Virus record (IMG/VR): IMGVR_UViG_2778261538_000001
Strand: one strand, 5' to 3'
DNA: 43,878 nucleotides
Source: a virus
Lineage: Duplodnaviria > Heunggongvirae > Uroviricota > Caudoviricetes
Positions 2,113 through 21,944 of this stretch are shown here, in pieces. Position 1 is the stretch's first letter. The number at the start of each line of letters is the position of its first letter. The position numbers and the translations under genes were made by a program. Under the pieces are notes generated by a model. That model had not been told where the DNA came from, ran no database searches, and saw only the letters and a list, made by a program, of their open reading frames with translations.

Positions 2113-2328
2113 TCACCGTTCCTTAAAAACGCCGTTTAACATGCCGATCGCTAGGCTTAAATGAGTCGGTGTGAATCCCATCAGCGTTACCGTTTCGCGG
2201 TGCTTCTTCAGTACGCTACGGCAAATGTCATCGACGTTTTTATCCGGAAACTGCTGTCTGGCTTTTTTGATTTCACAATTAGCCTGACGGGCAATGCTGC
2301 GAAGGGCGTTATTATGTTCTATTGTCAT
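2113..2328 (-). CDS. Hypothetical protein, about 71 aa (ATG at 2328; the longer 2113..2466 ORF overlaps the upstream gene)
   Basis: ORF in operon context; start chosen at the internal ATG that avoids overlap with 2336..3088. Confidence 0.3.
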   Translation of the reverse strand: MTIEHNNALRSIARQANCEIKKARQQFPDKNVDDICRSVLKKHRETVTLMGFTPTHLSLAIGMLNGVFKER

Positions 2329-2335
2329 ATTGGCC

Positions 2336-3088
2336 TCACACTTCGAATGCCAACTGAGGGGTAAAGACGTCCCGTTCAGCGTTGTAATTAAGTGAACTGG
2401 CACTGTTGAATGATTCAATGCGTTCCACAAGAACTTGCGTACGGGTTTCTTTACTTGCGGGAGCATATGGCGAACCTACCCAGGATTTGTCGATGCCTAT
2501 ATTTCTTGCGACGTTCGTGCTGTCTGCAGACGAAAGCGGTACATGAGTAAAAATGTCTTTATTTAACATCCGTAACCCATGAATCTTGGTGATTGGGTAG
2601 CCGTACTGATCTACAACATGACGTATAAGATCGCGTAGTTTAGCCCGACACGCTCTCGGTCGTTTTGCATCGTATTCCCCCATCGAGCCGATGCAGACGC
2701 GGGGAAACTCATGGCACAGACGAATAAATCGCTCATCTGGTTCGTTCATGTGCCACACCGGAGCACCAATAAATTTACCGTGAGGCCATGCCGCAATCAG
2801 GGCGTCATTCTCTTCACTGGTTCCGCCGATAACATCCGGGATAACCGCGAATGAGAAACGAGGGTGATTACCCCAGCGTTCAACAAATCTGTAATATTCA
2901 TTCCAGTCTACGGCCTTGTTTTTTGTCCAGAATGTGAATGCACCATTATCAAGAGCAAATGATTGGGTGACTTCGGAAGCCAGCTCAATCTGAGCTGGAT
3001 TAGCAAAACTGATGAATGCGTGTCTGCCTTTCCAGGCTTTCAACGCACAGGTATCGGGAGTTATTGGACCACCGTGAAAATGAATCAT
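2336..3088 (-). CDS. Conserved hypothetical early-left protein, 250 aa
   Basis: Long ORF, coding-like composition, start overlaps the stop of the small upstream ORF (ATGA). Confidence 0.6.
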   Translation of the reverse strand: MIHFHGGPITPDTCALKAWKGRHAFISFANPAQIELASEVTQSFALDNGAFTFWTKNKAVDWNEYYRFVERWGNHPRFSFAVIPDVIGGTSEENDALIAAWPHGKFIGAPVWHMNEPDERFIRLCHEFPRVCIGSMGEYDAKRPRACRAKLRDLIRHVVDQYGYPITKIHGLRMLNKDIFTHVPLSSADSTNVARNIGIDKSWVGSPYAPASKETRTQVLVERIESFNSASSLNYNAERDVFTPQLAFEV

Positions 3089-3243: not shown

Positions 3244-3920
3244 CGCCATTGCTCCCCAAATACAAAACCAATTTCAGCCAGTGCCTCGTCCATTTTTTCG
3301 ATGAACTCCGGCACCATCTCGTCAAAACTCGCCATGTACTTTTCATCCCGCTCAACCACGACATAATGCAGTCCTTCACGCTTCATACGCGGGTCATAGT
3401 TGGCAAAGTACCAGGCATCTTTTCGCGTCACCCACATGCTGTACTGCACCTGGGCCATGTAAGCTGACTTTATGGCCTCGAAACCACCGAGCCGGAACTT
3501 CATGAAATCCCGGGAGGTAAACGGGCATTTCAGTTCAAGGCCGTTGCCGTCACTGCATAAACCATCTGGAGAGCAGGCGGTACGCATACTTTCGTCGCGA
3601 TAGATGATCGGTGATTCAGTAACATTCACGCCGGAAGTGAACTCAAACAGGGCTCTGGCGTCGTTCTCGTACTGTTTTCCCCAGGCCAGCGCTTTAGCGT
3701 TAACTTCCGGAGCCACACCGGTGCAAACCTCAGCAAGCAGGGTGTGGAAGTAGGACATTTTCATGTCAGGCCACTTTTTTCCGGAGCGGGGTTTTGCTAT
3801 TACGTTATGAACTTCTGAAGCTGTGATGACGCCGAGCCGTAATTTGTGCCACGCATCATCCCCCTGTTCGACAGCTCTCACGTCGATCCCGGTACGCTGC
3901 AGGATAATGTCCGGTGTCAT
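3240..3920 (-). CDS. exo: Lambda exonuclease (Red-alpha), 226 aa
   Basis: Translation [40 protein letters not shown]... matches lambda Exo almost residue for residue (from memory). Confidence 0.97.
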
Positions 3921-5079: not shown

Positions 5080-5370
5080 TTAGTGATTCAGGCCGTTGCC
5101 GCGCCCGTCGAGAAAAACTTCCACGAGCAAATCACGGGTATAAGTGCGCTCGATGCCGCGATGCAGATAAAGCCGTCCGCGTAAATTAGCTGATGCAGTC
5201 CAGGTACCATCTTTGTGTTTGACCAGCATTCCTGGCATGACCGCACCTCGATTAACGGTCTGCGTTCCGTAATGTTGATGAACCATAAAAACTCCTGCCC
5301 GTAAGCTGGGCTGCTGAACATATAGAGACTTCTGCGCGTATTCAGGCGGTGGATGGCCGCCGGTTGTCAT
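5080..5370 (-). CDS. Hypothetical early-left protein (about 96 aa from ATG at 5370; the 136-aa ORF to 5490 would need a TTG start)
   Basis: ORF in the position occupied by N/kil/cIII in lambda; GAGG upstream of the ATG at 5370; identity not recognised. Confidence 0.4.
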
Positions 5371-5539
5371 AACTAAGCCGCCTCGTTGAAACGACTGAGG
5401 TATGAAGTGTTGAGTTGATTTCAGCTGGTCACACCGACGTTCACGCGTCCGCTTCACCCCTCGCACTTCCCGAAGCCTGCTGAAATTCAAGCTGCGGATC
5501 TAAGCGGTCATCGCAACGGTGAATCAGGTGGTTGCCGTA

Positions 5540-5650
5540 TCGTTGTGTTGTTGCGATGAATTTATTTAAAACTATAGTTGTTTTGTCGTCAACAACAAAA
5601 GTTGTTTTATTGGTTGTTTTAGATGTAACTGGTTGTATTTAGGATGGGTT
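5540..5650 (-). promoter_or_regulatory. Candidate oL/pL region: GTTGTT/AACAAC inverted repeats with leftward TTGACG-17-TTAAAT promoter-like hexamers
   Basis: Palindromes GTTGTT-N8-AACAAC and AACAAC-N4-GTTGTT at about 5577-5606 share the half-site seen in the cI-cro intergenic region. Confidence 0.45.
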
Positions 5651-5733: not shown

Positions 5734-5762
5734 ATAAAAGAAAACCCGGCACGGTGGCCGGG
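5734..5762 (-). terminator. Rho-independent terminator closing the cI-kinase-phosphatase operon
   Basis: CCCGGC-acggtg-GCCGGG stem-loop followed on the minus strand by TTTTCTTTTAT, immediately 3' of the phosphatase stop. Confidence 0.7.
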
Positions 5763-5766
5763 AAGT

Positions 5767-6510
5767 TTACAAATACTTTACATTTACCGCTATAAGAGAA
5801 TAATCGTCAGTCGGGCCTTTTGTCTCTATTCTTCGCATTAGGCTGGAGGCAAACCTTGATGCGGTTGACAATGTACGGTAAGAAAATCGTGGGCGTTGCT
5901 CCCAAAAGGTATGCGCGCCATCAGACATGATGAATAGAGATAGAACACCATCGTCAAGAGGAAGTTCATCTTTATCAATATTTATGACTTGATGTTGAAG
6001 GGGGATCTTGGCAGCAAGTGCAGTTGTAATAATATTTTTACCTTTTGCATTTTTGAGCTGTCGAGCTGTATAAATACCGCTATCTATCAACATTTGATGT
6101 TGAGTATGATCTGTTGTTAATTGGATTAGCTTATTTCCATTTTTTAAATAAACACGACAGTCACCTACATGTATAATTGTTAGACCTTGATTGTGAAGTA
6201 GGCACATTGTTAAAGTTGTAGCAGCAGATGCTAATTCTTTATCAACTGACGAAAGAGATGCCACCTTTTCTTGTAGGGTCTTAAGTAAGGATAAGACATT
6301 GTCTTCATGAGTGAAGCTGTCTTTAATACTATACAAATGATTTATTACTGCTGCAGATGCTTCTTTTCCTCCTTTATAACCACCAACCCCATCAGCTATA
6401 GCCATAAGATAACCATTTGGTGTTTGAAGTGGATAAAGCACGCTATCTTGATTTTCCCTGCCATTATGTTTTGGTACAGAAAATATGGATGATGAGAGTA
6501 TGCTAATCAT
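5767..6510 (-). CDS. PP2C-family Ser/Thr protein phosphatase, 247 aa
   Basis: Motifs AIADGVGG, HVGDCRVY and FIMSDGAH in the translation; overlaps kinase stop by 4 nt; AT-rich. Confidence 0.8.
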   Translation of the reverse strand: MISILSSSIFSVPKHNGRENQDSVLYPLQTPNGYLMAIADGVGGYKGGKEASAAVINHLYSIKDSFTHEDNVLSLLKTLQEKVASLSSVDKELASAATTLTMCLLHNQGLTIIHVGDCRVYLKNGNKLIQLTTDHTQHQMLIDSGIYTARQLKNAKGKNIITTALAAKIPLQHQVINIDKDELPLDDGVLSLFIMSDGAHTFWEQRPRFSYRTLSTASRFASSLMRRIETKGPTDDYSLIAVNVKYL

Positions 6511-7232
6511 AAGCGTTTCAACTCCAATTCCTCAAAGATCTGCTCTACGGTCAGGAATCTTTTGTTAAGTTGTCTATGCGTACATTTGTTTATTATATCA
6601 TCAAAACCATCAATATTTAATTCTTCAATTAAAATACCAATTGAATATATATCTGATTGTTTTGAATATCCGTTGAGGAAAACGTTGTAATCAAAGTATT
6701 TAGGAGTAGCGGGGTATTGGCCAATTTGTGTTAATAGCTGTGTATTGGCATCTGGTGACACATTTTTTGCAAGGCCGAAGTCAGATAACTTATAAATTCC
6801 ATCTTTAAATTTTAGTACATTTAGTGGTTTTATATCCCGATGAAGATATCCTTTCTTATGAATCCATCCGACGGCATTTAGTACCATTTTTACAATAGAG
6901 ATTTTTTCAGCCTTTGTAAGAGTTCCACTTTTTATTTCTTCTTCAAGATTTGTTTCTGCTAGTTCCATTACGAACCAAGGCTGAGCATTCTGTAAGTGGC
7001 ATATGAATATTTGGACAATATTAGTATGCAGGCATTCAGTTTGATATCTTACTTCTCGTTCAAATCTGGTAAAGAGTTCAGGATCTGTTGCATCAGGTCG
7101 TAAAATTTTTCTGGCATATAGACCACAAATTTTTCTTTGTGAGTTATATAACCTTATTTTTTCTACAAGGCCAAAACCGCCAGAACCAATTACTTCTAGG
7201 GGTTCTATTAGGTAATTCCCACGTTCTTCCAT
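6507..7232 (-). CDS. Minimal Hanks-type Ser/Thr protein kinase, 241 aa
   Basis: Gly-rich loop GSGGFG, conserved Lys (YARK), catalytic loop HRDIKPLN, DFG motif (LSDFGLAK); AT-rich; directly downstream of cI. Confidence 0.85.
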   Translation of the reverse strand: MEERGNYLIEPLEVIGSGGFGLVEKIRLYNSQRKICGLYARKILRPDATDPELFTRFEREVRYQTECLHTNIVQIFICHLQNAQPWFVMELAETNLEEEIKSGTLTKAEKISIVKMVLNAVGWIHKKGYLHRDIKPLNVLKFKDGIYKLSDFGLAKNVSPDANTQLLTQIGQYPATPKYFDYNVFLNGYSKQSDIYSIGILIEELNIDGFDDIINKCTHRQLNKRFLTVEQIFEELELKRL

Positions 7233-7327
7233 TGTTCATCCTTTTAAGTTAGACAAAAGGAAAAATATAATGCAATGTTATCGATGCTTTTTTGAAGCCA
7301 AAGTTAACTTGTTGAATTTATGTCGAA

Positions 7328-8017
7328 TTATCCATGCTTCCTATACGTCTGCGGCATGCTCCCGATGACTTTCCCGAAGATGAATACCCGGTTCATCTCG
7401 TCTTTCTCGATTGGGTCCCACGGTGAGTAGCTCTTGTTATCAGAGATAACCAGCAGTTTATCCTTCATCATTTGCAGGCGCTTTACATGGGCTGTGTCGT
7501 CGTACAGAAACGCATAGATACCATCACCGTCGAAAGATTTAACCGTGATATCAACGAACAGCAGATCACCTGGTTCGATCGTTCCTGACATGCTGTCACC
7601 GCGTACGTTAATGATACGGATATTTTCCGCCTTCCTGCCATCGAACATGTGACGAGCATCGTCAAACGAATACTCAACCGAACGTAGAACTTCTACAAAC
7701 TCACGGTTGATGACTCCCGGCCCGGCACTCACTTCGATATCAAGAACGTCAATCTTAAAGTATTTGGAATGGCTGACAGTTGTTTGTATTGGTTGCACTG
7801 TACTGTCTGACATATTTCCAACGCCAGAAGATAACCATTCTGCGCGCACACCCAAAGCGTTCGCGATCTCCACGATTTTAGTTGTTTGGTTAGCTTTCCC
7901 TGTTTCGATTTTCTGAATAGCTGCTTGGCTAACCCCGACCAAATCCCCAAGCGCCTTTTGTGTAAGGCCTCGCGCTAATCTGGCTTCTTTAAGTCTTTCT
8001 GAGAGTGTTGTTTTCAT
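7328..8017 (-). CDS. cI: CI-type prophage repressor (HTH plus LexA-like S24 autopeptidase domain), 229 aa from ATG at 8017
   Basis: N-terminal HTH (LTQKALGDLVGVSQAAIQKIETG), C-terminal GDSM and VKRL Ser/Lys dyad motifs; divergent from cro. Confidence 0.85.
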   Translation of the reverse strand: MKTTLSERLKEARLARGLTQKALGDLVGVSQAAIQKIETGKANQTTKIVEIANALGVRAEWLSSGVGNMSDSTVQPIQTTVSHSKYFKIDVLDIEVSAGPGVINREFVEVLRSVEYSFDDARHMFDGRKAENIRIINVRGDSMSGTIEPGDLLFVDITVKSFDGDGIYAFLYDDTAHVKRLQMMKDKLLVISDNKSYSPWDPIEKDEMNRVFIFGKVIGSMPQTYRKHG

Positions 8018-8421: not shown

Positions 8422-8961
8422 ATGCAACCACTTACATACCAACAGACTAGCGGATTTAGCCCGACTGCGGTGATAAATCGTTCTCAAACAAAACAAGCTC
8501 CAGGCCACGAAAAAATCCGTGATGCCGTCCGCGCCTGGTCGGCTGTAGATAATCAGGATGTCGTTGCCGCACTCATTGTGAATGAGTATCGGGAGCAGGG
8601 CGGCGGCACCATCGATTTCCCTGATGATGTCAGCCGTGCACGCCAGAAGATGTTCCGCTTCCTCGATAACAAATTCGATTCTGAAAAATACCGAAATAAC
8701 GTGCGTGAACTGACCCCGGCAATTCTGGCGGTACTACCGCTGGAATATCGCGGTTACCTAGTTGAGCAGGATAGCTTCATGGCTCGGCTGGCTGAAATGG
8801 AAAAGGAACTCAGTGAGGCAAAGCAGGCGGTCATTCTCAACGCACCACGCCACCAGAAACTGAAGGAGATGAGTGAAGGCATTGTGTCGATGTTTCGAGT
8901 GGACCCGGATCTGGCTGGTCCACTGATGGCGATGGTCACCACCATGCTGGGGGCAATATGA
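8422..8961 (+). CDS. CII-position regulatory protein (YdaT-like), 179 aa
   Basis: Position immediately after cro and before O; no catalytic motif recognised. Confidence 0.55.
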   Translation: MQPLTYQQTSGFSPTAVINRSQTKQAPGHEKIRDAVRAWSAVDNQDVVAALIVNEYREQGGGTIDFPDDVSRARQKMFRFLDNKFDSEKYRNNVRELTPAILAVLPLEYRGYLVEQDSFMARLAEMEKELSEAKQAVILNAPRHQKLKEMSEGIVSMFRVDPDLAGPLMAMVTTMLGAI

Positions 8962-10974: not shown

Positions 10975-11041
10975 TGAAACAGGTGAGTTGAGTTCAAACT
11001 GTAGTACAATTCTCTCCAGTTTGAACAGGAAAGAATATGCT

Positions 11042-11374
11042 ATGAATCCTTATATTTATCTTGGTGGTGCAATACTTGCAGAGGTCATTGGTACAACCTT
11101 AATGAAGTTTTCAGAAGGTTTTACACGGTTATGGCCATCTGTTGGTACAATTATTTGTTATTGTGCATCATTCTGGTTATTAGCTCAGACGCTGGCTTAT
11201 ATTCCTACAGGGATTGCTTATGCTATCTGGTCAGGAGTCGGTATTGTCCTGATTAGCTTACTATCATGGGGATTTTTCGGCCAACGGTTGGACCTGCCAG
11301 CCATTATAGGCATGATGTTGATTTGTGCCGGTGTGTTGGTTATTAATTTATTGTCACGAAGCACACCACATTAA
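11042..11374 (+). CDS. emrE: SMR-family multidrug efflux transporter EmrE, 110 aa
   Basis: Translation from MNPYIYLGGAILAEVIGTTLMKFSEGFTRLWPSVGT... matches E. coli EmrE; start chosen at ATG 11042. Confidence 0.93.
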   Translation: MNPYIYLGGAILAEVIGTTLMKFSEGFTRLWPSVGTIICYCASFWLLAQTLAYIPTGIAYAIWSGVGIVLISLLSWGFFGQRLDLPAIIGMMLICAGVLVINLLSRSTPH

Positions 11375-11629
11375 AAATAATTTGTTTTTAAACGACTAAA
11401 ATATGGAGGCTCGTATATTTATATGGGCCTCGTTTTATGCTTTTTGTTAATGTCTTTAGTTTTTATTCATTCTTTTGTGCTTTCAAGATTATGGTGTAAG
11501 AAAATTGCAATACGATTATTGTTGTATATTCAAGATAATGTGACCTTAATTGTCTTTTTAAATAAAAATTAAACAAAAATCATATCTCACCACTAAGGTT
11601 TATAAAAGCATACTTTAGCAGGTGTCACC

Positions 11630-13156
11630 ATGAAAAAAGCCATAGCATATATGCGATTTTCATCACCAGGTCAGATGTCTGGTGATTCATTAAACCGCCA
11701 GAGAAGGCTTATTACTGAATGGCTAAAGGTAAATAGTGATTATTACCTTGATACCGTAACGTATGAAGATTTGGGGTTAAGCGCATTCAATGGAAAGCAT
11801 GCACAATCAGGAGCTTTTTCGGAATTTTTAGATGCTATAGAACATGGTTATATATTGCCAGGGACTACATTGTTAGTTGAAAGTCTGGACAGACTTTCAA
11901 GAGAAAAAGTCGGTGAAGCGATTGAGCGTCTGAAATTGATTTTGAATCACGGTATTGATGTTATAACTCTTTGCGATAATACAGTCTATAATATTGACTC
12001 ATTGAATGAGCCATATTCATTAATAAAAGCCATACTTATAGCACAAAGGGCAAATGAAGAAAGCGAGATAAAGTCAAGTCGGGTTAAATTATCATGGAAG
12101 AAAAAACGGCAGGATGCACTGGAGTCAGGCACGATTATGACGGCTTCTTGTCCGAGATGGCTCTCATTGGATGACAAAAGAACGGCTTTTGTTCCAGACC
12201 CCGACAGGGTGAAAACTATTGAGCTAATTTTTAAACTCAGGATGGAAAGGCGCTCATTGAATGCAATAGCCAAGTATTTAAATGATCATGCTGTAAAGAA
12301 TTTCTCAGGAAAAGAAAGTGCATGGGGACCTTCTGTAATTGAAAAATTATTAGCGAATAAAGCTCTGATAGGTATATGCGTACCTTCATATCGTGCAAGA
12401 GGCAAAGGGATAAGTGAAATCGCTGGCTATTATCCCAGAGTCATATCAGATGATTTGTTTTACGCTGTACAGGAAATTCGGTTGGCACCTTTTGGTATTA
12501 GCAATAGTAGCAAGAATCCTATGCTAATAAATCTACTTCGAACAGTTATGAAGTGTGAGGCTTGTGGTAATACCATGATTGTTCATGCGGTATCTGGAAG
12601 TTTGCATGGCTATTATGTTTGTCCGATGAGAAGATTACATCGATGTGACAGACCATCAATAAAAAGAGATTTGGTTGATTATAATATCATTAATGAATTG
12701 CTTTTTAATTGTAGCAAAATTCAACCAGTTGAAAACAAGAAAGATGCTAATGAAACTTTAGAGTTAAAAATTATTGAGCTTCAGATGAAAATTAATAATT
12801 TAATCGTTGCATTGTCTGTCGCGCCTGAAGTTACCGCTATAGCAGAGAAAATAAGACTATTAGATAAGGAATTACGAAGGGCTTCGGTATCATTAAAAAC
12901 TTTGAAGAGTAAAGGGATGAGTTCACTTGGTGATTTTCATGCTATTGATTTAACCAGTAAAAATGGGCGAGAGCTATGTCGTACACTTGCCTATAAAATA
13001 TTCGAAAAAATTATAATTAATACAGATAATAAAACCTGTGATATCTATTTTATGAATGGCATTGTTTTTAAACACTATCCTTTAATGAAAGTAATATCCG
13101 CCCAGCAGGCGATAAGTACTCTTAAATATATGGTTGATGGTGAGATTTATTTTTGA
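11630..13156 (+). CDS. Large serine recombinase (resolvase/invertase catalytic domain plus recombinase and zinc-ribbon domains), 508 aa; YbcK-like
   Basis: N-terminal YMRFSSPGQ catalytic-serine motif; Cys cluster CEACGN...YYVCPMRRLHRCD; very AT-rich. Confidence 0.8.
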   Translation: MKKAIAYMRFSSPGQMSGDSLNRQRRLITEWLKVNSDYYLDTVTYEDLGLSAFNGKHAQSGAFSEFLDAIEHGYILPGTTLLVESLDRLSREKVGEAIERLKLILNHGIDVITLCDNTVYNIDSLNEPYSLIKAILIAQRANEESEIKSSRVKLSWKKKRQDALESGTIMTASCPRWLSLDDKRTAFVPDPDRVKTIELIFKLRMERRSLNAIAKYLNDHAVKNFSGKESAWGPSVIEKLLANKALIGICVPSYRARGKGISEIAGYYPRVISDDLFYAVQEIRLAPFGISNSSKNPMLINLLRTVMKCEACGNTMIVHAVSGSLHGYYVCPMRRLHRCDRPSIKRDLVDYNIINELLFNCSKIQPVENKKDANETLELKIIELQMKINNLIVALSVAPEVTAIAEKIRLLDKELRRASVSLKTLKSKGMSSLGDFHAIDLTSKNGRELCRTLAYKIFEKIIINTDNKTCDIYFMNGIVFKHYPLMKVISAQQAISTLKYMVDGEIYF

Positions 13157-13478
13157 GTAATAATCACTTTTTCAACCGTGCTATGGTATGAAAGTAAAGT
13201 AACTAATATGATATTAACTATCTTGAACGAAGCGCCCTGAGCTATAGTTTTACTATAGGCACTGCCACTGGATGTTGGCATTCTTGCTCTAGTAGCTCAA
13301 CAATACCCAATCACAAAACAATTCACTGATAACAAACTTTGTGCACGTGCTTGGTTATGGCGAACAGGTGATGTTAACCTCTTGCCTGAATGCCACTCCA
13401 CTTCATTAAGTATCTGAGCACCGAGAGGCTGGTCACGCCCCCATTAAAAATAATTTCTTTTGAATCGAGTGAAATAGG

Positions 13479-13505
13479 TTAGCCCGCATAAGTGCGGGCT
13501 GCTTT
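13479..13505 (+). terminator. Stem-loop terminator (AGCCCGCA-taag-TGCGGGCT then GCTTTTT)
   Basis: Perfect 8-bp stem with T-run on the plus strand; abuts the 3' end of the minus-strand esterase gene. Confidence 0.5.
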
Positions 13506-14549
13506 TTACAGGTCAGCGTTTGTTTTTTGTTGTTGGGTAGCGGTTTTTATGGGGGTTCCCAGGTTTTTAGTAAACCACTCAACAACTCTGTTTATAATAA
13601 TTGGCTGATACCATGTATTATCGCCATGCTCAGCCCCTTCTACCAGAACGTACTCAGCGTTATCGCCGTTCTTCTTCAACATCCTGAATAGTTTGGCGCT
13701 TTGCTCAGGTGAAACCAGAGTGTCTTTGCTACCATGCATAATAAGAAATGGGGGTTTTACTCCTTTCATATGTCCGATTGGACTGGCGTTTAGCGCTTTT
13801 TCTTTTGACGCTGTTATGGGGGCTCCCGCAAAACTTCTGAATGCAGGGCCATTGATCATTAAGGCTTCGGTTACGGCAGGAGATCGATGAACCTCCTGCA
13901 CTGATTCAGGGAACCCCTCGCCAATATTCAACAAGTCAGAAATCCCATAAAGTGTGGCAACTGCCTGAACATCTGCTGATTGCTGAAGAAAGTCACCTTT
14001 ATTAAAGGTTTTGTCACCATTTGTAGTTCCCATCATCTGGGCAAGCCATCCACCGGCAGAGTCACCCAGAACTCCGATTCTTTGAGGATCAATCCCATAA
14101 TCGCTGGCATGTTCTCTCAAGTAACGTATTGCAGCTTTCCCATCCTCAACTGGTGCTGGAAATGTATCAGGAATTGTTCTGTATTCTACAGCGGCCACAA
14201 CAAAACCAGCTTCAGCCAGAGCCATTCTCATTTCAATAAATTTGTCATGTTCAGAAGACATGAATCCGCCGCCGGGATAATAAATAATGGCTGGTTTTAA
14301 ATCATTTGTTCGCGGGACAAGAACTGACATGTGAAGCTGTCTGACAGAACGAGTTCCTTTTATCTGGGAATAAACAACATCACCAATGAGATCGACCTGG
14401 TTTCTGGTGGGTGAAACACTAATGATATCTGCACCCGGGGTGTAACCAGGAAGATTAGTCTGGACAGGTGTTGCACAACTCCCGACCGACATGGCCATTG
14501 ACATACCATACAATAGTGTTGCAGATGATAATATCTTGTTAATTTTCAT
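13506..14549 (-). CDS. Secreted alpha/beta-hydrolase (esterase/lipase family) with N-terminal signal peptide, 347 aa
   Basis: GDSAGG nucleophile elbow, YYPGGGF oxyanion-hole-like motif, hydrophobic N-terminus ending ...SVGSC (possible lipobox). Confidence 0.8.
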   Translation of the reverse strand: MKINKILSSATLLYGMSMAMSVGSCATPVQTNLPGYTPGADIISVSPTRNQVDLIGDVVYSQIKGTRSVRQLHMSVLVPRTNDLKPAIIYYPGGGFMSSEHDKFIEMRMALAEAGFVVAAVEYRTIPDTFPAPVEDGKAAIRYLREHASDYGIDPQRIGVLGDSAGGWLAQMMGTTNGDKTFNKGDFLQQSADVQAVATLYGISDLLNIGEGFPESVQEVHRSPAVTEALMINGPAFRSFAGAPITASKEKALNASPIGHMKGVKPPFLIMHGSKDTLVSPEQSAKLFRMLKKNGDNAEYVLVEGAEHGDNTWYQPIIINRVVEWFTKNLGTPIKTATQQQKTNADL

Positions 14550-17058: not shown

Positions 17059-18141
17059 TTAGAACTGATAAACCAGACCTACAGCGACGATGTCGTCGGT
17101 ATCAATACCAGCTGTTTTGGTAAACTTACTATCGTCAATTAAGTTGATTTTGTAATCAACAAAAGTGGACATGTTTTTATTAAAGTAGTAAGTAGCACCG
17201 ACATCGACATACTTGACTAAGTCTCGGTCACCATGAACACCAAGGTCTTTACCTTTTGACTGAAGGTAAGCAACAGATGGTCGCAGACCGAAGTCAAACT
17301 GATATTGTGCTACTGCTTCAAAGTTTTGTGCTTTGTTTGCAATATGGTTATTACCAAAAACGGTCATATTCTGAGTTTCAGAATATGTGGTAGCCAGATA
17401 GATATTGTTCGCATCATATTTCAGGCCTGCAGCCCATACTTCCGCATTTTTGCCGGAGGCATTGAATTTGCTCTTACCATAGGCGACCTGACCGTCAGTG
17501 CGATCTGATTTAGCATAGGTTGCACCCACGCCGAATCCTTCATACTCATAAGTAGTGGAGAAACCGAAACCATCACCATTGGCTTCAGTTACGTCAGTGC
17601 GGTCATTTTTACCCTGATACTGAGCAGCAAAGTTCAGGCCATCGACCAGACCAAAGAAGTCGTTGTTACGATAAGTTGCAACACCAGTAGTGCGACCAGT
17701 CATGAACACATCTGTTTGGGTCCAGGTATCACCACCGAATTCTGGCAGGACGTCAGTCCACGCACCGATGTCGTATGCTACACCGTAGTTACGGCCGTAA
17801 TCGATTGAGCCGTAATCACCAAATTTCAGGCCTGCAAATGCAAGACGGGTTTTGTCTTTGGAAGAACCTTGAGATTCAGCACGGTTGCCTTTGAATTCAT
17901 ATTCCCACTGACCGAAACCAGTCAGTTGATCGTTGATTTGGGTTTCACCTTTGAAGCCAAGACGGGCATAAGTAGTATCACCATCATCTGCATCATTAGA
18001 GGAGAAGTAGTGCTTGGCATTAACTTTCCCGTATAGATCCAGCTTGTTACTGTCTTTATTATAAATTTCAGCTGCCTGAGCAGACATCGCCATCAGTACT
18101 GATGCAGCTACAGCAGAAATTGCCACTGTTAATTTTTTCAT
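17059..18141 (-). CDS. nmpC: OmpC/OmpF-family general porin (NmpC/Lc type), intact, with signal peptide, 360 aa
   Basis: Signal peptide ending [12 protein letters not shown]-terminal ...VGLVYQF terminal Phe, typical 16-strand porin; antisense to late operon. Confidence 0.93.
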
Positions 18142-20314: not shown

Positions 20315-20935
20315 ATGAAAGATCAAGATGTTAGGTTCGCGGTGCATCATAAGCTTTTGAAAGAATCGCATTTAGATCCAGACTGTCTTGTGGTCGATGA
20401 ATTTTCCATATCCCTTGGCGCCAGTAGAGCAGACATTGCTGTAATAAATGGTGTTATACACGGGTACGAGCTCAAAAGTGAATATGACTCTTTGGAGCGT
20501 TTGCCTCTTCAAATCAAGCATTATTCTTCTGTAATGGACAAGGTTACTCTTGTCGTAGCTGAGAAACACCTTGAGGGAGCATTAAAGTTAATCCCAGGTT
20601 GGTGGGGCGTTAAAACGGTTTCTGTTGGGCCAAAAGGCGCCATTCTTATAAAGCACATGCGTGGAGAAAAGCTTAATCGAAACCATGACACATTGATGCT
20701 CGCTCAATTGCTTTGGAAAGATGAATGTATCGACGTACTTGAACGATGGGGCTATTCCAAAGGAATCAAAAGCAAGCCCCGATTTGAGTTATGGAATATT
20801 ATTGCGGAAAATATTCCAATAGCGAATCTCAGGCTTGAAGTCAGAACAGCCTTAAAGAAACGCGTAGGCTGGAAAGTTAAGGCTTGGCAGGCTGAGTCTG
20901 CGCCAACCAATAAAGCTGTCTCACGACTAACGTAA
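20315..20935 (+). CDS. PD-(D/E)xK-like protein (possibly sce7726 family), 206 aa
   Basis: Motif VVDEF...RADIAV...GYELKSE (D...D...E-x-K) in the N-terminal half; AT-rich; convergent with and overlapping its partner. Confidence 0.6.
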   Translation: MKDQDVRFAVHHKLLKESHLDPDCLVVDEFSISLGASRADIAVINGVIHGYELKSEYDSLERLPLQIKHYSSVMDKVTLVVAEKHLEGALKLIPGWWGVKTVSVGPKGAILIKHMRGEKLNRNHDTLMLAQLLWKDECIDVLERWGYSKGIKSKPRFELWNIIAENIPIANLRLEVRTALKKRVGWKVKAWQAESAPTNKAVSRLT

Positions 20936-21944
20936 TATGGTGCGTATGTGCAACTTTACGCCATTCTTTAGAGCCGCCAGATTTGTTAGCGCCTAATGAT
21001 CTTTGGTAAATGTAATCATCCCCCCAACTAAATTTGGAGCCAAAGACTTGATACTCTGGCGAACTAACAAGGGTAGTACATAAGTTTTTAGTTTGGCCCC
21101 ATCCATTTCCTTTAACTGCGGTACCTTTTACAAAGATCCATGAGGTATCGTTCGAATATCTCACTGAGACATACTGAGACATGAAGCGTGGGTCTACGCT
21201 CGTAATGGTAGAGCTAGCGGTGGGATAATCACTAAAACTTGGCGTTCTTCCATTGCTAAAATTCTGTACTACGTACATCCAAAGATCGTATTCATGGCGC
21301 GGAATATGATGAACTTGATGTTGCGGTATCCCTGCCTGTGATGCCGGGTATGCGGTTGAAGATAAAATCAAGTTTCTCCACGGAGCTTGGCCTGATAATG
21401 TGTTGACCATGCTTAATGCTTGTTGTTTTAAACTATCAGTTGCGTTTTGAATATCTCCAAAATCAATGATTACATCAATTAAACTAGGATGAATATTTAA
21501 GTGGTTAACCAGACTTGTGAATTGGTGCCATGTCTGGGGGGTGATAGATATAGCGAGCCCATTGATTAAGTTGCGTTGAACAGCATGTATATAGTTTGTT
21601 GAATATGCGGGAGAAACAACAGGGATAATTTCCTTACCATTTACTCTAGCATCTTGGATACACATATCTAGAGGATGATGGCGGCTCGAACCATGTTTAT
21701 CTAAATATTTAACATCCAGCAAAACAGGACGATTGGCTTTCCAGGATGCCGCAAGGTTAATACCGAAGTCAGATAAGTAAGAACTCAAACTCTTCTTGTA
21801 GCATTCGTTTTCATAATCCCAGTCTATGTCTGGAATGGTAATGATCGGAGTAAAACCAGAGAGCGTAGTTTGATCTAAAAGCATCAGAGATTCATATTCA
21901 GCAGGCTTCCATTTCAGCTGTGGATAATATTGATGTTGACTCAT
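20877..21944 (-). CDS. Uncharacterised 355-aa protein, partner of the PD-(D/E)xK-like gene (possibly sce7725 / beta-protein family)
   Basis: Long AT-rich ORF convergent with 20315..20935, 59-nt 3' overlap; no catalytic motif recognised. Confidence 0.6.
   Translation of the reverse strand: MSQHQYYPQLKWKPAEYESLMLLDQTTLSGFTPIITIPDIDWDYENECYKKSLSSYLSDFGINLAASWKANRPVLLDVKYLDKHGSSRHHPLDMCIQDARVNGKEIIPVVSPAYSTNYIHAVQRNLINGLAISITPQTWHQFTSLVNHLNIHPSLIDVIIDFGDIQNATDSLKQQALSMVNTLSGQAPWRNLILSSTAYPASQAGIPQHQVHHIPRHEYDLWMYVVQNFSNGRTPSFSDYPTASSTITSVDPRFMSQYVSVRYSNDTSWIFVKGTAVKGNGWGQTKNLCTTLVSSPEYQVFGSKFSWGDDYIYQRSLGANKSGGSKEWRKVAHTHHITLVVRQLYWLAQTQPAKP

What the first reader, a model, noticed from the sequence alone, without database searches (positions are those of the whole stretch)
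5734..7232. Ser/Thr kinase plus PP2C phosphatase pair in the rexAB slot of the immunity operon
Directly downstream of cI, where lambda carries rexA-rexB, sit two overlapping, co-oriented genes. One is a stripped-down Hanks-type kinase (GSGGFG, HRDIKPLN, DFG) with no sensor domain; the other is a PP2C phosphatase (DGVGG, GDCR, MSDG). A hairpin plus T-run terminator follows at 5734-5762. Both genes are markedly more AT-rich than the flanking lambda-like genes, so they look like a horizontally acquired moron expressed from the repressor promoter in the lysogen. Prophage kinases at this locus are known to exclude superinfecting phage (Stk of 933W, as I recall), but a kinase with a cognate phosphatase as a two-gene unit here suggests a toxin/antidote-like or sensor/reset abortive-infection module that I do not recognise as described.
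Basis: partly seen in the sequence, partly recalled or inferred. Interest (0 to 1): 0.85.

Follow-up and report, generated by a model that had tools for sequence, protein, structure and literature searches.

The report
Prophage kinase–phosphatase cargo beside the repressor
A lambda-like E. coli prophage carries, right after its repressor gene, a tightly coupled protein kinase and phosphatase pair that travels between phages as one unit and is most likely an untested anti-phage system, a minimal relative of the published kinase-kinase-phosphatase (KKP) module.

Summary
On the minus strand, cI (7328-8017) is followed by a 241-aa Hanks kinase (6507-7232) and a 247-aa PP2C phosphatase (5767-6510). 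The two genes share an ATGA stop/start overlap. A terminator (5745-5762) and the early-left genes follow. All catalytic residues are invariant across homologues, and both genes are under purifying selection.

- **Cargo slot:** the pair exactly fills an AT-rich slot (5763-7328) between the cI stop and a backbone terminator.
- **Alternative cargo:** sibling phages with the same backbone carry PADLOC candidate defence genes there (PDC-S42, PDC-M11AB). 933W-type phages carry the exclusion kinase Stk in the equivalent slot.
- **Obligate unit:** in 61 of 61 viral contigs with a family kinase, the cognate PP2C lies immediately downstream.
- **Mobility:** the cassette occupies at least five different prophage cargo slots, a P4-like element and a Yersinia defence hotspot.

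The most likely function is lysogen-expressed abortive infection or exclusion, with the kinase as effector and the phosphatase as brake. This is inferred, not shown. The concept was published in 2024 for the three-gene KKP module. This pair fails KKP's defining features, and I found no paper describing it. I rate it a new variant of a known kind.

The parts
7328..8017 (-). cI-type repressor (HTH_3 + Peptidase_S24). Its stop codon is the right-hand junction of the cargo slot. The longest ORF runs to 8083.
   Evidence: Pfam S24 1.5e-18 and HTH_3 6.5e-13. PGAP 'S24 family peptidase' at the equivalent coordinates in L003. Backbone homology resumes at 7329.
7233..7327 (-). 95-nt cI-kinase spacer, the first part of the acquired AT-rich cargo. 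It carries an AAGGA ribosome-binding site 7 nt before the kinase ATG. No terminator and no consensus promoter are predicted on this strand.
   Evidence: Sequence. Promoter/terminator scan. Co-transcription with cI is inferred.
6507..7232 (-). Bare Hanks-type Ser/Thr protein kinase, 241 aa, with no accessory domain.
   Evidence: Pkinase 2.5e-32. Invariant G18 G21 A40 K42 E60 H131 R132 D133 K135 N138 D151 F152 G153 D194 G199 R225 across 33-45 homologues. AF2 pLDDT 89.5 with a disordered activation loop at 159-171. Foldseek matches to PknB and other kinase domains. pN 0.07-0.21 against pS 0.74-0.85.
5767..6510 (-). PP2C/PPM-family Ser/Thr phosphatase, 247 aa. Its start overlaps the kinase stop (ATGA).
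   Evidence: PP2C_2 4.8e-12. Invariant D22 D40 G41 G116 D117 R119 D134 S196 D197 G198 D235 D236, plus the family-specific FWExRPRF motif. AF2 pLDDT 92.2. TM 0.72-0.82 to PstP, tPphA and Stp1. pN 0.17-0.28 against pS 0.73-0.78.
5763..7328 (.). The replaceable cargo segment (35.7% GC). Sibling phages with 96-99.7% identical flanks carry other cargo here.
   Evidence: blastn junctions at 5762/5763 and 7329 against L094 and L096. The alternative cargos are PADLOC PDC-S42 and PDC-M11A/B.
5735..5762 (-). Intrinsic terminator of the immunity operon (6-bp GC stem, 6-nt loop, T-run). It is part of the conserved backbone.
   Evidence: Terminator scan. Fold -11.8 kcal/mol, z -2.2. It lies inside the flank shared with L094 and L096.
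5560..5640 (-). Putative pL/OL region: TTGACG-17-TTAAAT at 5592-5564, with AACAAC/GTTGTT palindromes. It heads the kil-gam-bet-exo operon.
   Evidence: Read from the sequence. One palindrome found at 5592-5605 and one inverted repeat. Synteny with kil 5080-5286, gam, bet and exo. This is inference; the site is not mapped.

Best explanation
The pair is a mobile two-gene phosphorylation switch that the prophage carries as defence cargo against other phages.

Shown:
- It is an intact, selected kinase plus PP2C operon with a conserved stop/start overlap.
- It is inherited as a unit.
- It sits in a replaceable slot between cI and the immunity-operon terminator, where related phages carry known or candidate defence genes.

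Inferred:
- It is transcribed with cI from the repressor promoter in the lysogen, as rexAB is in lambda.
- In uninfected cells the phosphatase keeps the sensor-less kinase, and its substrates, dephosphorylated. T168 and T176 in the activation loop are conserved.
- On infection by a heterologous phage, a phage protein either blocks the phosphatase or directly activates the kinase. The first is how T4 Gp59 acts on PfpC in KKP. The second is reported for 933W Stk and for Stk2.
- Broad phosphorylation of host or phage proteins then arrests growth and aborts the infection.
- The phosphatase allows the system to reset.
For: - Catalytic competence and selection.
- Obligate coupling: 61/61 IMG/VR loci with a family kinase (31-100% identity) have the PP2C directly downstream on the same strand, while 0/19 generic-kinase loci do. 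47 of 69 pairs overlap as ATGA and 15 more overlap in other ways. K and P identity matrices correlate at r=0.85, Mantel 0/2000.
- Hotspot allelism: identical backbones carry PDC-S42 (3e-86) or PDC-M11A/B (2e-133, 7e-52) in exactly this slot. phi24B/933W carries Stk there.
- Portability: the cassette is found after the repressor, after N, between Q and lysis, between Rz and terS, at prophage ends, in P2-like and P4-like elements. In Yersinia it sits next to a slot that alternates PDC-S60 + ThsB-like TIR with PDC-M38A/B.
- Precedent: KKP is a kinase-toxin/PP2C-antitoxin defence (PMC11341870). A Ser/Thr kinase was validated as an E. coli defence (PMC9519451).
- Rarity: only 15 of 5,426 complete E. 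coli genomes carry it, always in a prophage.
Against: - There is no functional data of any kind for this family.
- Several 'defence' neighbours are only PADLOC candidates, not validated systems.
- In many phages the cassette lies in the late operon or downstream of N. There it could be expressed during lytic growth rather than in the lysogen.
- The kinase's PADLOC hits (mad6, PD-T4-6, Stk2) cover only the generic kinase core, and 933W Stk gives the same hit pattern. They therefore add little.
- The toxin-first gene order is unusual for toxin-antitoxin pairs.
- No promoter or transcript evidence was obtained.
Confidence: 0.55

Rival explanations
1. The pair is a lysogenic-conversion or lysogeny-control switch. 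It phosphorylates a host regulator, such as a nucleoid protein, or a phage regulator. This would tune prophage induction or host physiology rather than block other phages.
For: KKP kinases phosphorylate MvaU and control Pf prophage production (PMC11341870). The pair lies next to cI in the immunity operon here.
Against: The same cassette works from at least five unrelated slots, from P2/P4-like elements and from non-phage chromosomal sites. That argues against dependence on one phage's regulatory circuit. The slot's alternative cargos are defence candidates.
Confidence: 0.2
2. The pair is a prophage addiction (stabilisation) module. The kinase would be a stable toxin and the phosphatase a labile antidote, so that loss of the prophage kills the cell. 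Any phage defence would be incidental.
For: The enzymes oppose each other and are tightly translationally coupled. KKP behaves as a toxin-antitoxin system.
Against: Differential stability cannot be assessed. A hotspot with frequent allelic replacement is not what an addictive element predicts. Many TA systems in such slots turn out to be defence systems.
Confidence: 0.12
3. The pair is a counter-defence or host-takeover function used during the phage's own lytic growth. It would act like the T7 gp0.7 kinase, which disarms host defences by mass phosphorylation, with the phosphatase limiting damage.
For: T7 kinase counteracts defences (bioRxiv 10.1101/2024.12.20.629319). In 14 viral loci the pair lies between Q and the lysis genes, and in 4 it lies after N.
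Against: In this window the pair is upstream of the putative pL and is sealed off by a terminator, so lytic promoters should not read it. It also occurs without any phage, in Yersinia and Acinetobacter chromosomes. It has no similarity to the T7 kinase family.
Confidence: 0.08
4. The pair consists of orthologues of a housekeeping Stk/Stp pair, or of decaying remnants with no function of their own.
For: NCBIfam's best hits are Stk1 PASTA kinase and Stp1 phosphatase.
Against: Scores are far below the family cut-offs (105 against 450 bits; 110 against 230 bits). There is no PASTA or transmembrane region. The gene order is reversed: kinase then phosphatase here, phosphatase then kinase in the Firmicute-type hits. 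The pair is present in only 15 of 5,426 E. coli genomes. Purifying selection is strong.
Confidence: 0.02

Closest known systems
KKP module (PfpC phosphatase + PfkB/PfkA kinases; Guo et al. 2024, Nat Commun, PMC11341870)
   Same: It is prophage-borne cargo in Gram-negative bacteria, combining Hanks Ser/Thr kinase(s) with a PP2C phosphatase in one operon. It is proposed as a phosphorylation-based toxin/antitoxin and abortive-infection defence in which a phage protein inhibits the phosphatase.
   Different: KKP is defined by three genes in the order phosphatase-kinase-kinase. One kinase carries a C-terminal cold-shock domain and the other an FHA domain, and both kinases are needed for toxicity. 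Here there is one bare 241-aa kinase, no CSD or FHA, the order kinase->phosphatase, and a lambdoid immunity-region location. Sequence relatedness to PfpC/PfkA/PfkB was not tested because I had no sequences.
Stk of Stx phage 933W/phi24B (Friedman et al. 2011, as cited in PMC3681748 and PMC9122126)
   Same: It is a eukaryotic-like kinase encoded between cI and OL, co-oriented with cI, which is the same slot. It is reported to be activated by HK97 infection and to cause exclusion.
   Different: Stk is 348 aa and shares only 26% identity over the kinase core. It is reported to be a tyrosine kinase. It has no partner phosphatase: no PP2C hit in any Stx phage.
PD-T4-6 (E. coli single-gene Ser/Thr-kinase defence; Vassallo et al. 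2022, PMC9519451) and staphylococcal Stk2 (Depardieu et al. 2016)
   Same: The kinase domain matches their PADLOC models (1.4e-34 and 1.7e-27). Both are kinase-effector abortive-infection systems.
   Different: The matches cover only the catalytic core (profile positions 15-205 of 327 and 129-352 of 500). Those are single-gene systems with extra regions. This kinase always has a PP2C partner.
TerY-P triad (Anantharaman et al. 2012; Gao et al. 2020, as summarised in PMC10542128)
   Same: It is a PP2C phosphatase plus Ser/Thr kinase signalling module. One form is validated as a stand-alone anti-phage system.
   Different: TerY-P needs a TerY-like VWA protein and a kinase fused to a zinc ribbon or OB fold. 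Neither is present here.
Lambda RexAB
   Same: [quoted passage not shown] It is lysogen-expressed exclusion cargo.
   Different: There is no sequence or fold relationship. RexAB is a sensor plus membrane ion channel, not a kinase/phosphatase pair.

Membership tests
Hanks-type (eukaryotic-like) Ser/Thr protein kinases | Gly-rich loop, VAIK Lys, alpha-C Glu, HRDxKxxN, DFG, and the subdomain IX Asp and XI Arg | tested here: met
   All are present and invariant in 33-45 homologues. Pfam 2.5e-32. The AF2 model matches kinase domains. The APE motif is degenerate (YFDY) in the window's subclade but is retained in more distant members.
PP2C/PPM phosphatases | Metal-binding Asp residues of motifs 1, 2, 8 and 11, the GDxR motif, and the PPM fold | tested here: met
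   D22, D40, D117, D197 and D235/D236 are invariant. The model has pLDDT 92 and TM 0.72-0.82 to PstP/tPphA/Stp1.
KKP (Guo et al. 2024) | A gene triplet: one PP2C followed by two kinase genes | tested here: not met
   There is a single kinase gene. cI lies upstream and a terminator downstream. All 61 viral loci have the order K->P.
KKP (Guo et al. 2024) | PfkA-like kinase with a C-terminal cold-shock domain, and PfkB-like kinase with a C-terminal FHA domain | tested here: not met
   Pfam finds only the kinase domain over residues 12-212 of 241 aa. Family members are 241-264 aa.
KKP (Guo et al. 2024) | Kinase toxicity neutralised by the phosphatase, and a phage protein that inhibits the phosphatase | not testable with these tools
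   This needs expression and infection experiments.
933W Stk-type exclusion kinase | Kinase gene between cI and OL, co-oriented with cI | tested here: met
   phi24B record: cI 307-1014, stk 1939-2985, OL 3349-3387. Window: cI, kinase, PP2C, terminator, putative pL.
933W Stk-type exclusion kinase | Orthology to Stk | tested here: not met
   25.7% identity, E=3e-7, 241 aa against 348 aa.
PD-T4-6 | Full-length match to PD-T4-6 models, and a single-gene system | tested here: inconclusive
   Best hit 1.4e-34, but to profile positions 15-205 of 327 only. 933W Stk gives the same pattern, so the hit reflects the generic kinase core. The obligate PP2C partner contradicts a single-gene system.
TerY-P triad | A TerY-like VWA gene, and a kinase fused to a Zn-ribbon or OB fold | tested here: not met
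   No such gene flanks the pair, and the kinase has no C-terminal extension.
Housekeeping Stk1/Stp1 (PASTA kinase pair) | NCBIfam equivalog score, PASTA/TM region, and phosphatase-then-kinase order | tested here: not met
   105 against 450 bits and 110 against 230 bits. The kinase is 241 aa with no PASTA. The order is kinase then phosphatase.
Anti-phage defence system (generic) | Measured protection against phage | not testable with these tools
   Only association evidence exists: hotspot allelism with PDC-S42, PDC-M11 and Stk, and Yersinia neighbours.

The most novel reading that the evidence does not exclude
The kinase->PP2C cassette is a self-sufficient, two-protein anti-phage system, distinct from KKP, in which the phosphatase itself is the guarded sensor. 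A phage protein that binds it releases a domain-less kinase that shuts the cell down. The logic resembles plant PYL-PP2C-SnRK2 signalling. It would be the minimal phosphorylation-based immune switch, and it is spread through every cargo slot of lambdoid phages, P2-like prophages and P4-like satellites across Enterobacterales, Xanthomonas, Pseudomonas and Acinetobacter.
Probability: 0.4. Interest if true: 0.65.

Novelty: new variant of a known kind. Interest (0 to 1): 0.5.

Why it matters
Phosphorylation-based immunity in bacteria is known from only a handful of systems: Stk2, 933W Stk, PD-T4-6, TerY-P and KKP. How a kinase with no sensor domain is kept silent and then triggered remains an open question.

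This cassette is the smallest possible version, one bare kinase and one PP2C. It is widespread, it has clear natural allelic controls in the same phage backbone, and it lives in E. coli lambda-like phages, where the genetics are easy. That makes the trigger question directly testable through escape mutants, kinase-dead and phosphatase-dead alleles, and phosphoproteomics.

The work also shows that the rexAB position is a general swap-in slot for defence cargo with exact junctions. This is useful for mining further systems.

Tried and rejected
- **Near-identical phage search:** megablast against 50,697 phage records found only the 164-bp backbone flank, not the pair. The pair is known only from prophages and two distant isolates, Flotzy and phiES15.
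- **Rfam:** a scan of the whole window found nothing.
- **Operators at OL/OR:** a motif search gave one hit, no better than chance. An inverted-repeat search gave one weak pair. pL/OL therefore remain putative.
- **Leader fold:** folding 5400-5600, to look for an N-independent antitermination RNA, was unremarkable (z=-1.9).
- **Natural kinase-phosphatase fusions:** the one long homologue, P0123, is an internal duplication and not a fusion. The PHROG 5650 profile length hint stays unexplained.
- **Finding a KKP example for sequence comparison:** an FHA-kinase hit (P0107) turned out not to be a KKP locus.
- **Literature:** DefensePredictor, P2/P4 hotspot and H-NS phosphorylation papers contained nothing on this pair. 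One query was rejected for syntax and one paper look-up failed on too many terms.
- **Rejected ideas:** housekeeping Stk/Stp orthology, and pseudogenisation.

Full report
**What is there.**
The window is a complete lambda/DLP12-like prophage running from integrase (1-1143) to tail fibres. On the minus strand the order is as follows:
- An HTH+S24 repressor (7328-8017; Pfam S24 1.5e-18, HTH_3 6.5e-13).
- A 95-nt spacer.
- A 241-aa protein kinase (6507-7232; Pkinase 2.5e-32).
- A 247-aa PP2C phosphatase (5767-6510; PP2C_2 4.8e-12), whose ATG overlaps the kinase TGA.
- An intrinsic terminator (stem 5762-5745 plus T-run).
- A promoter-like TTGACG-17-TTAAAT with AACAAC/GTTGTT palindromes.
- kil, gam, bet and exo.

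The pair is 35.7% GC, against 46.7% for cI and 51.5% for kil-exo.

**Are the enzymes real?**
- In alignments of 33-45 homologues, every Hanks catalytic residue is invariant: G18/G21, K42, E60, H131-R132-D133, K135, N138, D151-F152-G153, D194, R225. Two activation-loop threonines, T168 and T176, are conserved.
- In 31-44 phosphatase homologues, all PP2C metal-binding aspartates (D22, D40, D117, D197, D235/236) are invariant. So is a family-specific FWExRPRF motif.
- AlphaFold models are confident (pLDDT 89.5 and 92.2). Only the kinase activation loop is disordered. The models superpose on PknB and other kinase domains, and on PstP, tPphA and Stp1.
- Against relatives at 63-87% (kinase) and 58-71% (phosphatase) identity, synonymous sites are saturated (pS 0.73-0.85) while pN is 0.07-0.28. 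Both genes are under purifying selection.

**They are one unit.**
- A scan of IMG/VR found 61 viral contigs carrying a family kinase (31-100% identity). All 61 have the cognate PP2C directly downstream on the same strand; in one it is split by a 1.3-kb insertion. None of 19 loci with merely generic kinases has it.
- The same kinase-then-phosphatase arrangement holds in every locus I fetched from genomes of Yersinia, Klebsiella, Xanthomonas, Pseudomonas, Enterobacter, Pantoea, Serratia and Acinetobacter.
- Of 69 pairs, 47 have the ATGA overlap, 6 have TAATG and 9 have longer overlaps.
- Pairwise identity matrices of the two proteins correlate at r=0.85 (Mantel 0/2000).

**The slot is a swap-in site for defence cargo.**
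- E. coli Z0117EC0117 and the isolated phage IdasGreatGrand share this phage's backbone at 96-99.7% identity. That identity ends exactly at window 5762/5763 and resumes at 7329, the cI stop codon.
- Between those points Z0117EC0117 carries a 313-aa protein matching PADLOC candidate PDC-S42 over its full length (3e-86). IdasGreatGrand carries PDC-M11A/B (2e-133, 7e-52). Both cargos are equally AT-rich.
- The terminator is thus backbone, shared by all alleles, and the cargo has no terminator of its own.
- In phi24B/933W the same slot (cI ... OL) holds stk. Its product is reported to be activated by HK97 and to exclude it (PMC3681748; Friedman 2011 is cited in PMC9122126). Lambda has rexAB in this position (established knowledge).

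**The cassette is highly mobile.**
Among the viral loci it lies in the following places:
- Directly after a repressor: 7 loci from 5 divergent lineages, with kinases 43-100% identical to this one.
- After an N antiterminator: 4 loci.
- Between Q and the lysis genes: 14 loci.
- Between Rz and the small terminase: 13 loci, plus 4 truncated ones.
- In several other places, including after head genes.

It occurs in isolated phages: Flotzy (Rz-terS slot) and Cronobacter phiES15 (Q-lysis slot). It is also found in a P2-like Pseudomonas prophage, a P4-like Klebsiella element, a Pantoea prophage end, and apparently phage-free Acinetobacter DNA. In Yersinia enterocolitica it sits beside a slot that holds PDC-S60 plus a ThsB-like TIR protein in one strain and PDC-M38A/B (AbiLi-like) in another. 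Only 15 of 5,426 complete E. coli genomes carry the window's allele, always next to the repressor.

**Most likely function.**
I commit, at about 0.55, to a lysogen-expressed abortive-infection or exclusion module.
- The kinase is the effector and the phosphatase is the brake, and probably the point at which an incoming phage is sensed.
- Shown: intact enzymes, obligate coupling, hotspot allelism with defence genes, and portability across elements.
- Inferred: co-transcription with cI. No terminator or consensus promoter is predicted in the spacer.
- Also inferred: kinase toxicity, the trigger, and the outcome.
- The precedent is KKP. There, two prophage kinases are jointly toxic, a PP2C is the antidote, and T4 Gp59 binds and inhibits the phosphatase (PMC11341870).

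**Rivals.**
- A lysogeny or host-physiology switch (0.2). KKP also does this through MvaU. It is weakened by the cassette's independence from any one phage's circuitry.
- A pure addiction module (0.12).
- A lytic-phase counter-defence kinase like T7 gp0.7 (0.08). It is weakened here because the pair lies upstream of pL behind a terminator, and because phage-free copies exist.
- Housekeeping orthologues or decaying remnants (0.02). NCBIfam scores far below cut-off, the reversed gene order, rarity and selection reject this.

**Comparison with what is known.**
- **KKP:** this pair works like KKP but is not a member. KKP is defined by a phosphatase-kinase-kinase triplet with CSD- and FHA-bearing kinases. 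This is a single bare kinase followed by the phosphatase.
- **933W Stk:** it shares the slot, but not orthology (26% identity) and not the partner phosphatase.
- **PADLOC kinase hits:** matches to mad6, PD-T4-6 and Stk2 cover only the catalytic core, and Stk gives the same pattern.
- **TerY-P:** it requires a VWA protein and a Zn-ribbon/OB kinase, both absent here.
- **Literature:** seven completed full-text searches (an eighth query was rejected), at least four of them aimed at such a pair, found no description of this two-gene cassette. Public annotation is generic: 'serine/threonine-protein kinase' and 'PP2C family phosphatase'.

**Verdict.**
- The concept is no longer new, since KKP was published in 2024. 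This is a distinct, minimal, widespread and experimentally untouched variant, so I rate it a new variant of a known kind.
- Interest is 0.5. A specialist would not be astonished, but the system is an unusually clean entry point to how sensor-less immune kinases are triggered.

Noticed in passing
window 20315-21944 (20315-20935 +, 20877-21944 -): The Rz-terS slot of this prophage holds other cargo. In other phages this slot carries the kinase-phosphatase cassette. Here a 206-aa protein matches PADLOC 'cll' (4e-31). A convergent 355-aa Pfam Beta_protein (8e-56) matches PD-Lambda-2_C (4e-32) and 'beta' (3.5e-10). Together they look like part of a P4 gop-beta-cll-type defence locus; that name is from memory of Rousset 2022 and was not checked. 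The segment is absent from the sibling prophage L003.
   Followed up: partly
window 2336-3088 (-): A 250-aa ORF has no Pfam hit but a strong PHROG 887 match, 'queuine tRNA-ribosyltransferase' (7e-99). It resembles a DpdA-type DNA 7-deazaguanine transglycosylase, which would be an anti-restriction DNA modification; that reading is from memory. It is inserted relative to sibling prophage L003, where window 2311-3085 has no counterpart.
   Followed up: partly
window 5287-5600 (-): There is no N-antiterminator gene between the putative pL and kil, although relatives of the cassette sit directly after N genes in other phages. The roughly 300-nt leader might carry an N-independent antitermination signal of the HK022 put type. 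Rfam found nothing and the fold was unremarkable.
   Followed up: partly
window 10988-14549: A second AT-rich cargo block (33-39% GC) lies in the nin region. It contains emrE (SMR efflux), the ybcK-like large serine recombinase (11630-13156) and an alpha/beta hydrolase (13506-14549, BD-FAE 3e-44), as in DLP12.
   Followed up: no
window 17059-18141 (-): An OmpC/NmpC-type porin gene (Porin_1, 1.9e-151) lies between Q (quuD) and the lysis genes. This is the same slot that holds the kinase-phosphatase pair in 14 other viral contigs. Together with the repressor-adjacent, nin-region and Rz-terS cargos above, four of this prophage's cargo slots are occupied.
   Followed up: no
L010/L011 6261-6545 (Klebsiella prophages): In Klebsiella prophages, an Acb2/Tad1-hairpin family gene (an anti-CBASS/anti-Thoeris sponge family) lies about 0.7 kb upstream of the kinase-phosphatase cassette, in the same lysis-terminase cargo region. 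A putative defence and an anti-defence gene therefore travel side by side.
   Followed up: no
PHROG 5650 profile; window 5767-6510: The phosphatase matches positions 276-519 of a 565-column PHROG profile. Some members of that family may therefore be about twice as long, possibly kinase-phosphatase fusions or mis-called read-through ORFs. I could not find such a fusion.
   Followed up: partly
window 8422-8961 (+): The gene in the cII position is a YdaT_toxin-domain protein (2.2e-29). PGAP annotates it as 'toxin YdaT domain-containing protein', while the phage record calls it 'CII-like activator'. The two annotations conflict.
   Followed up: no
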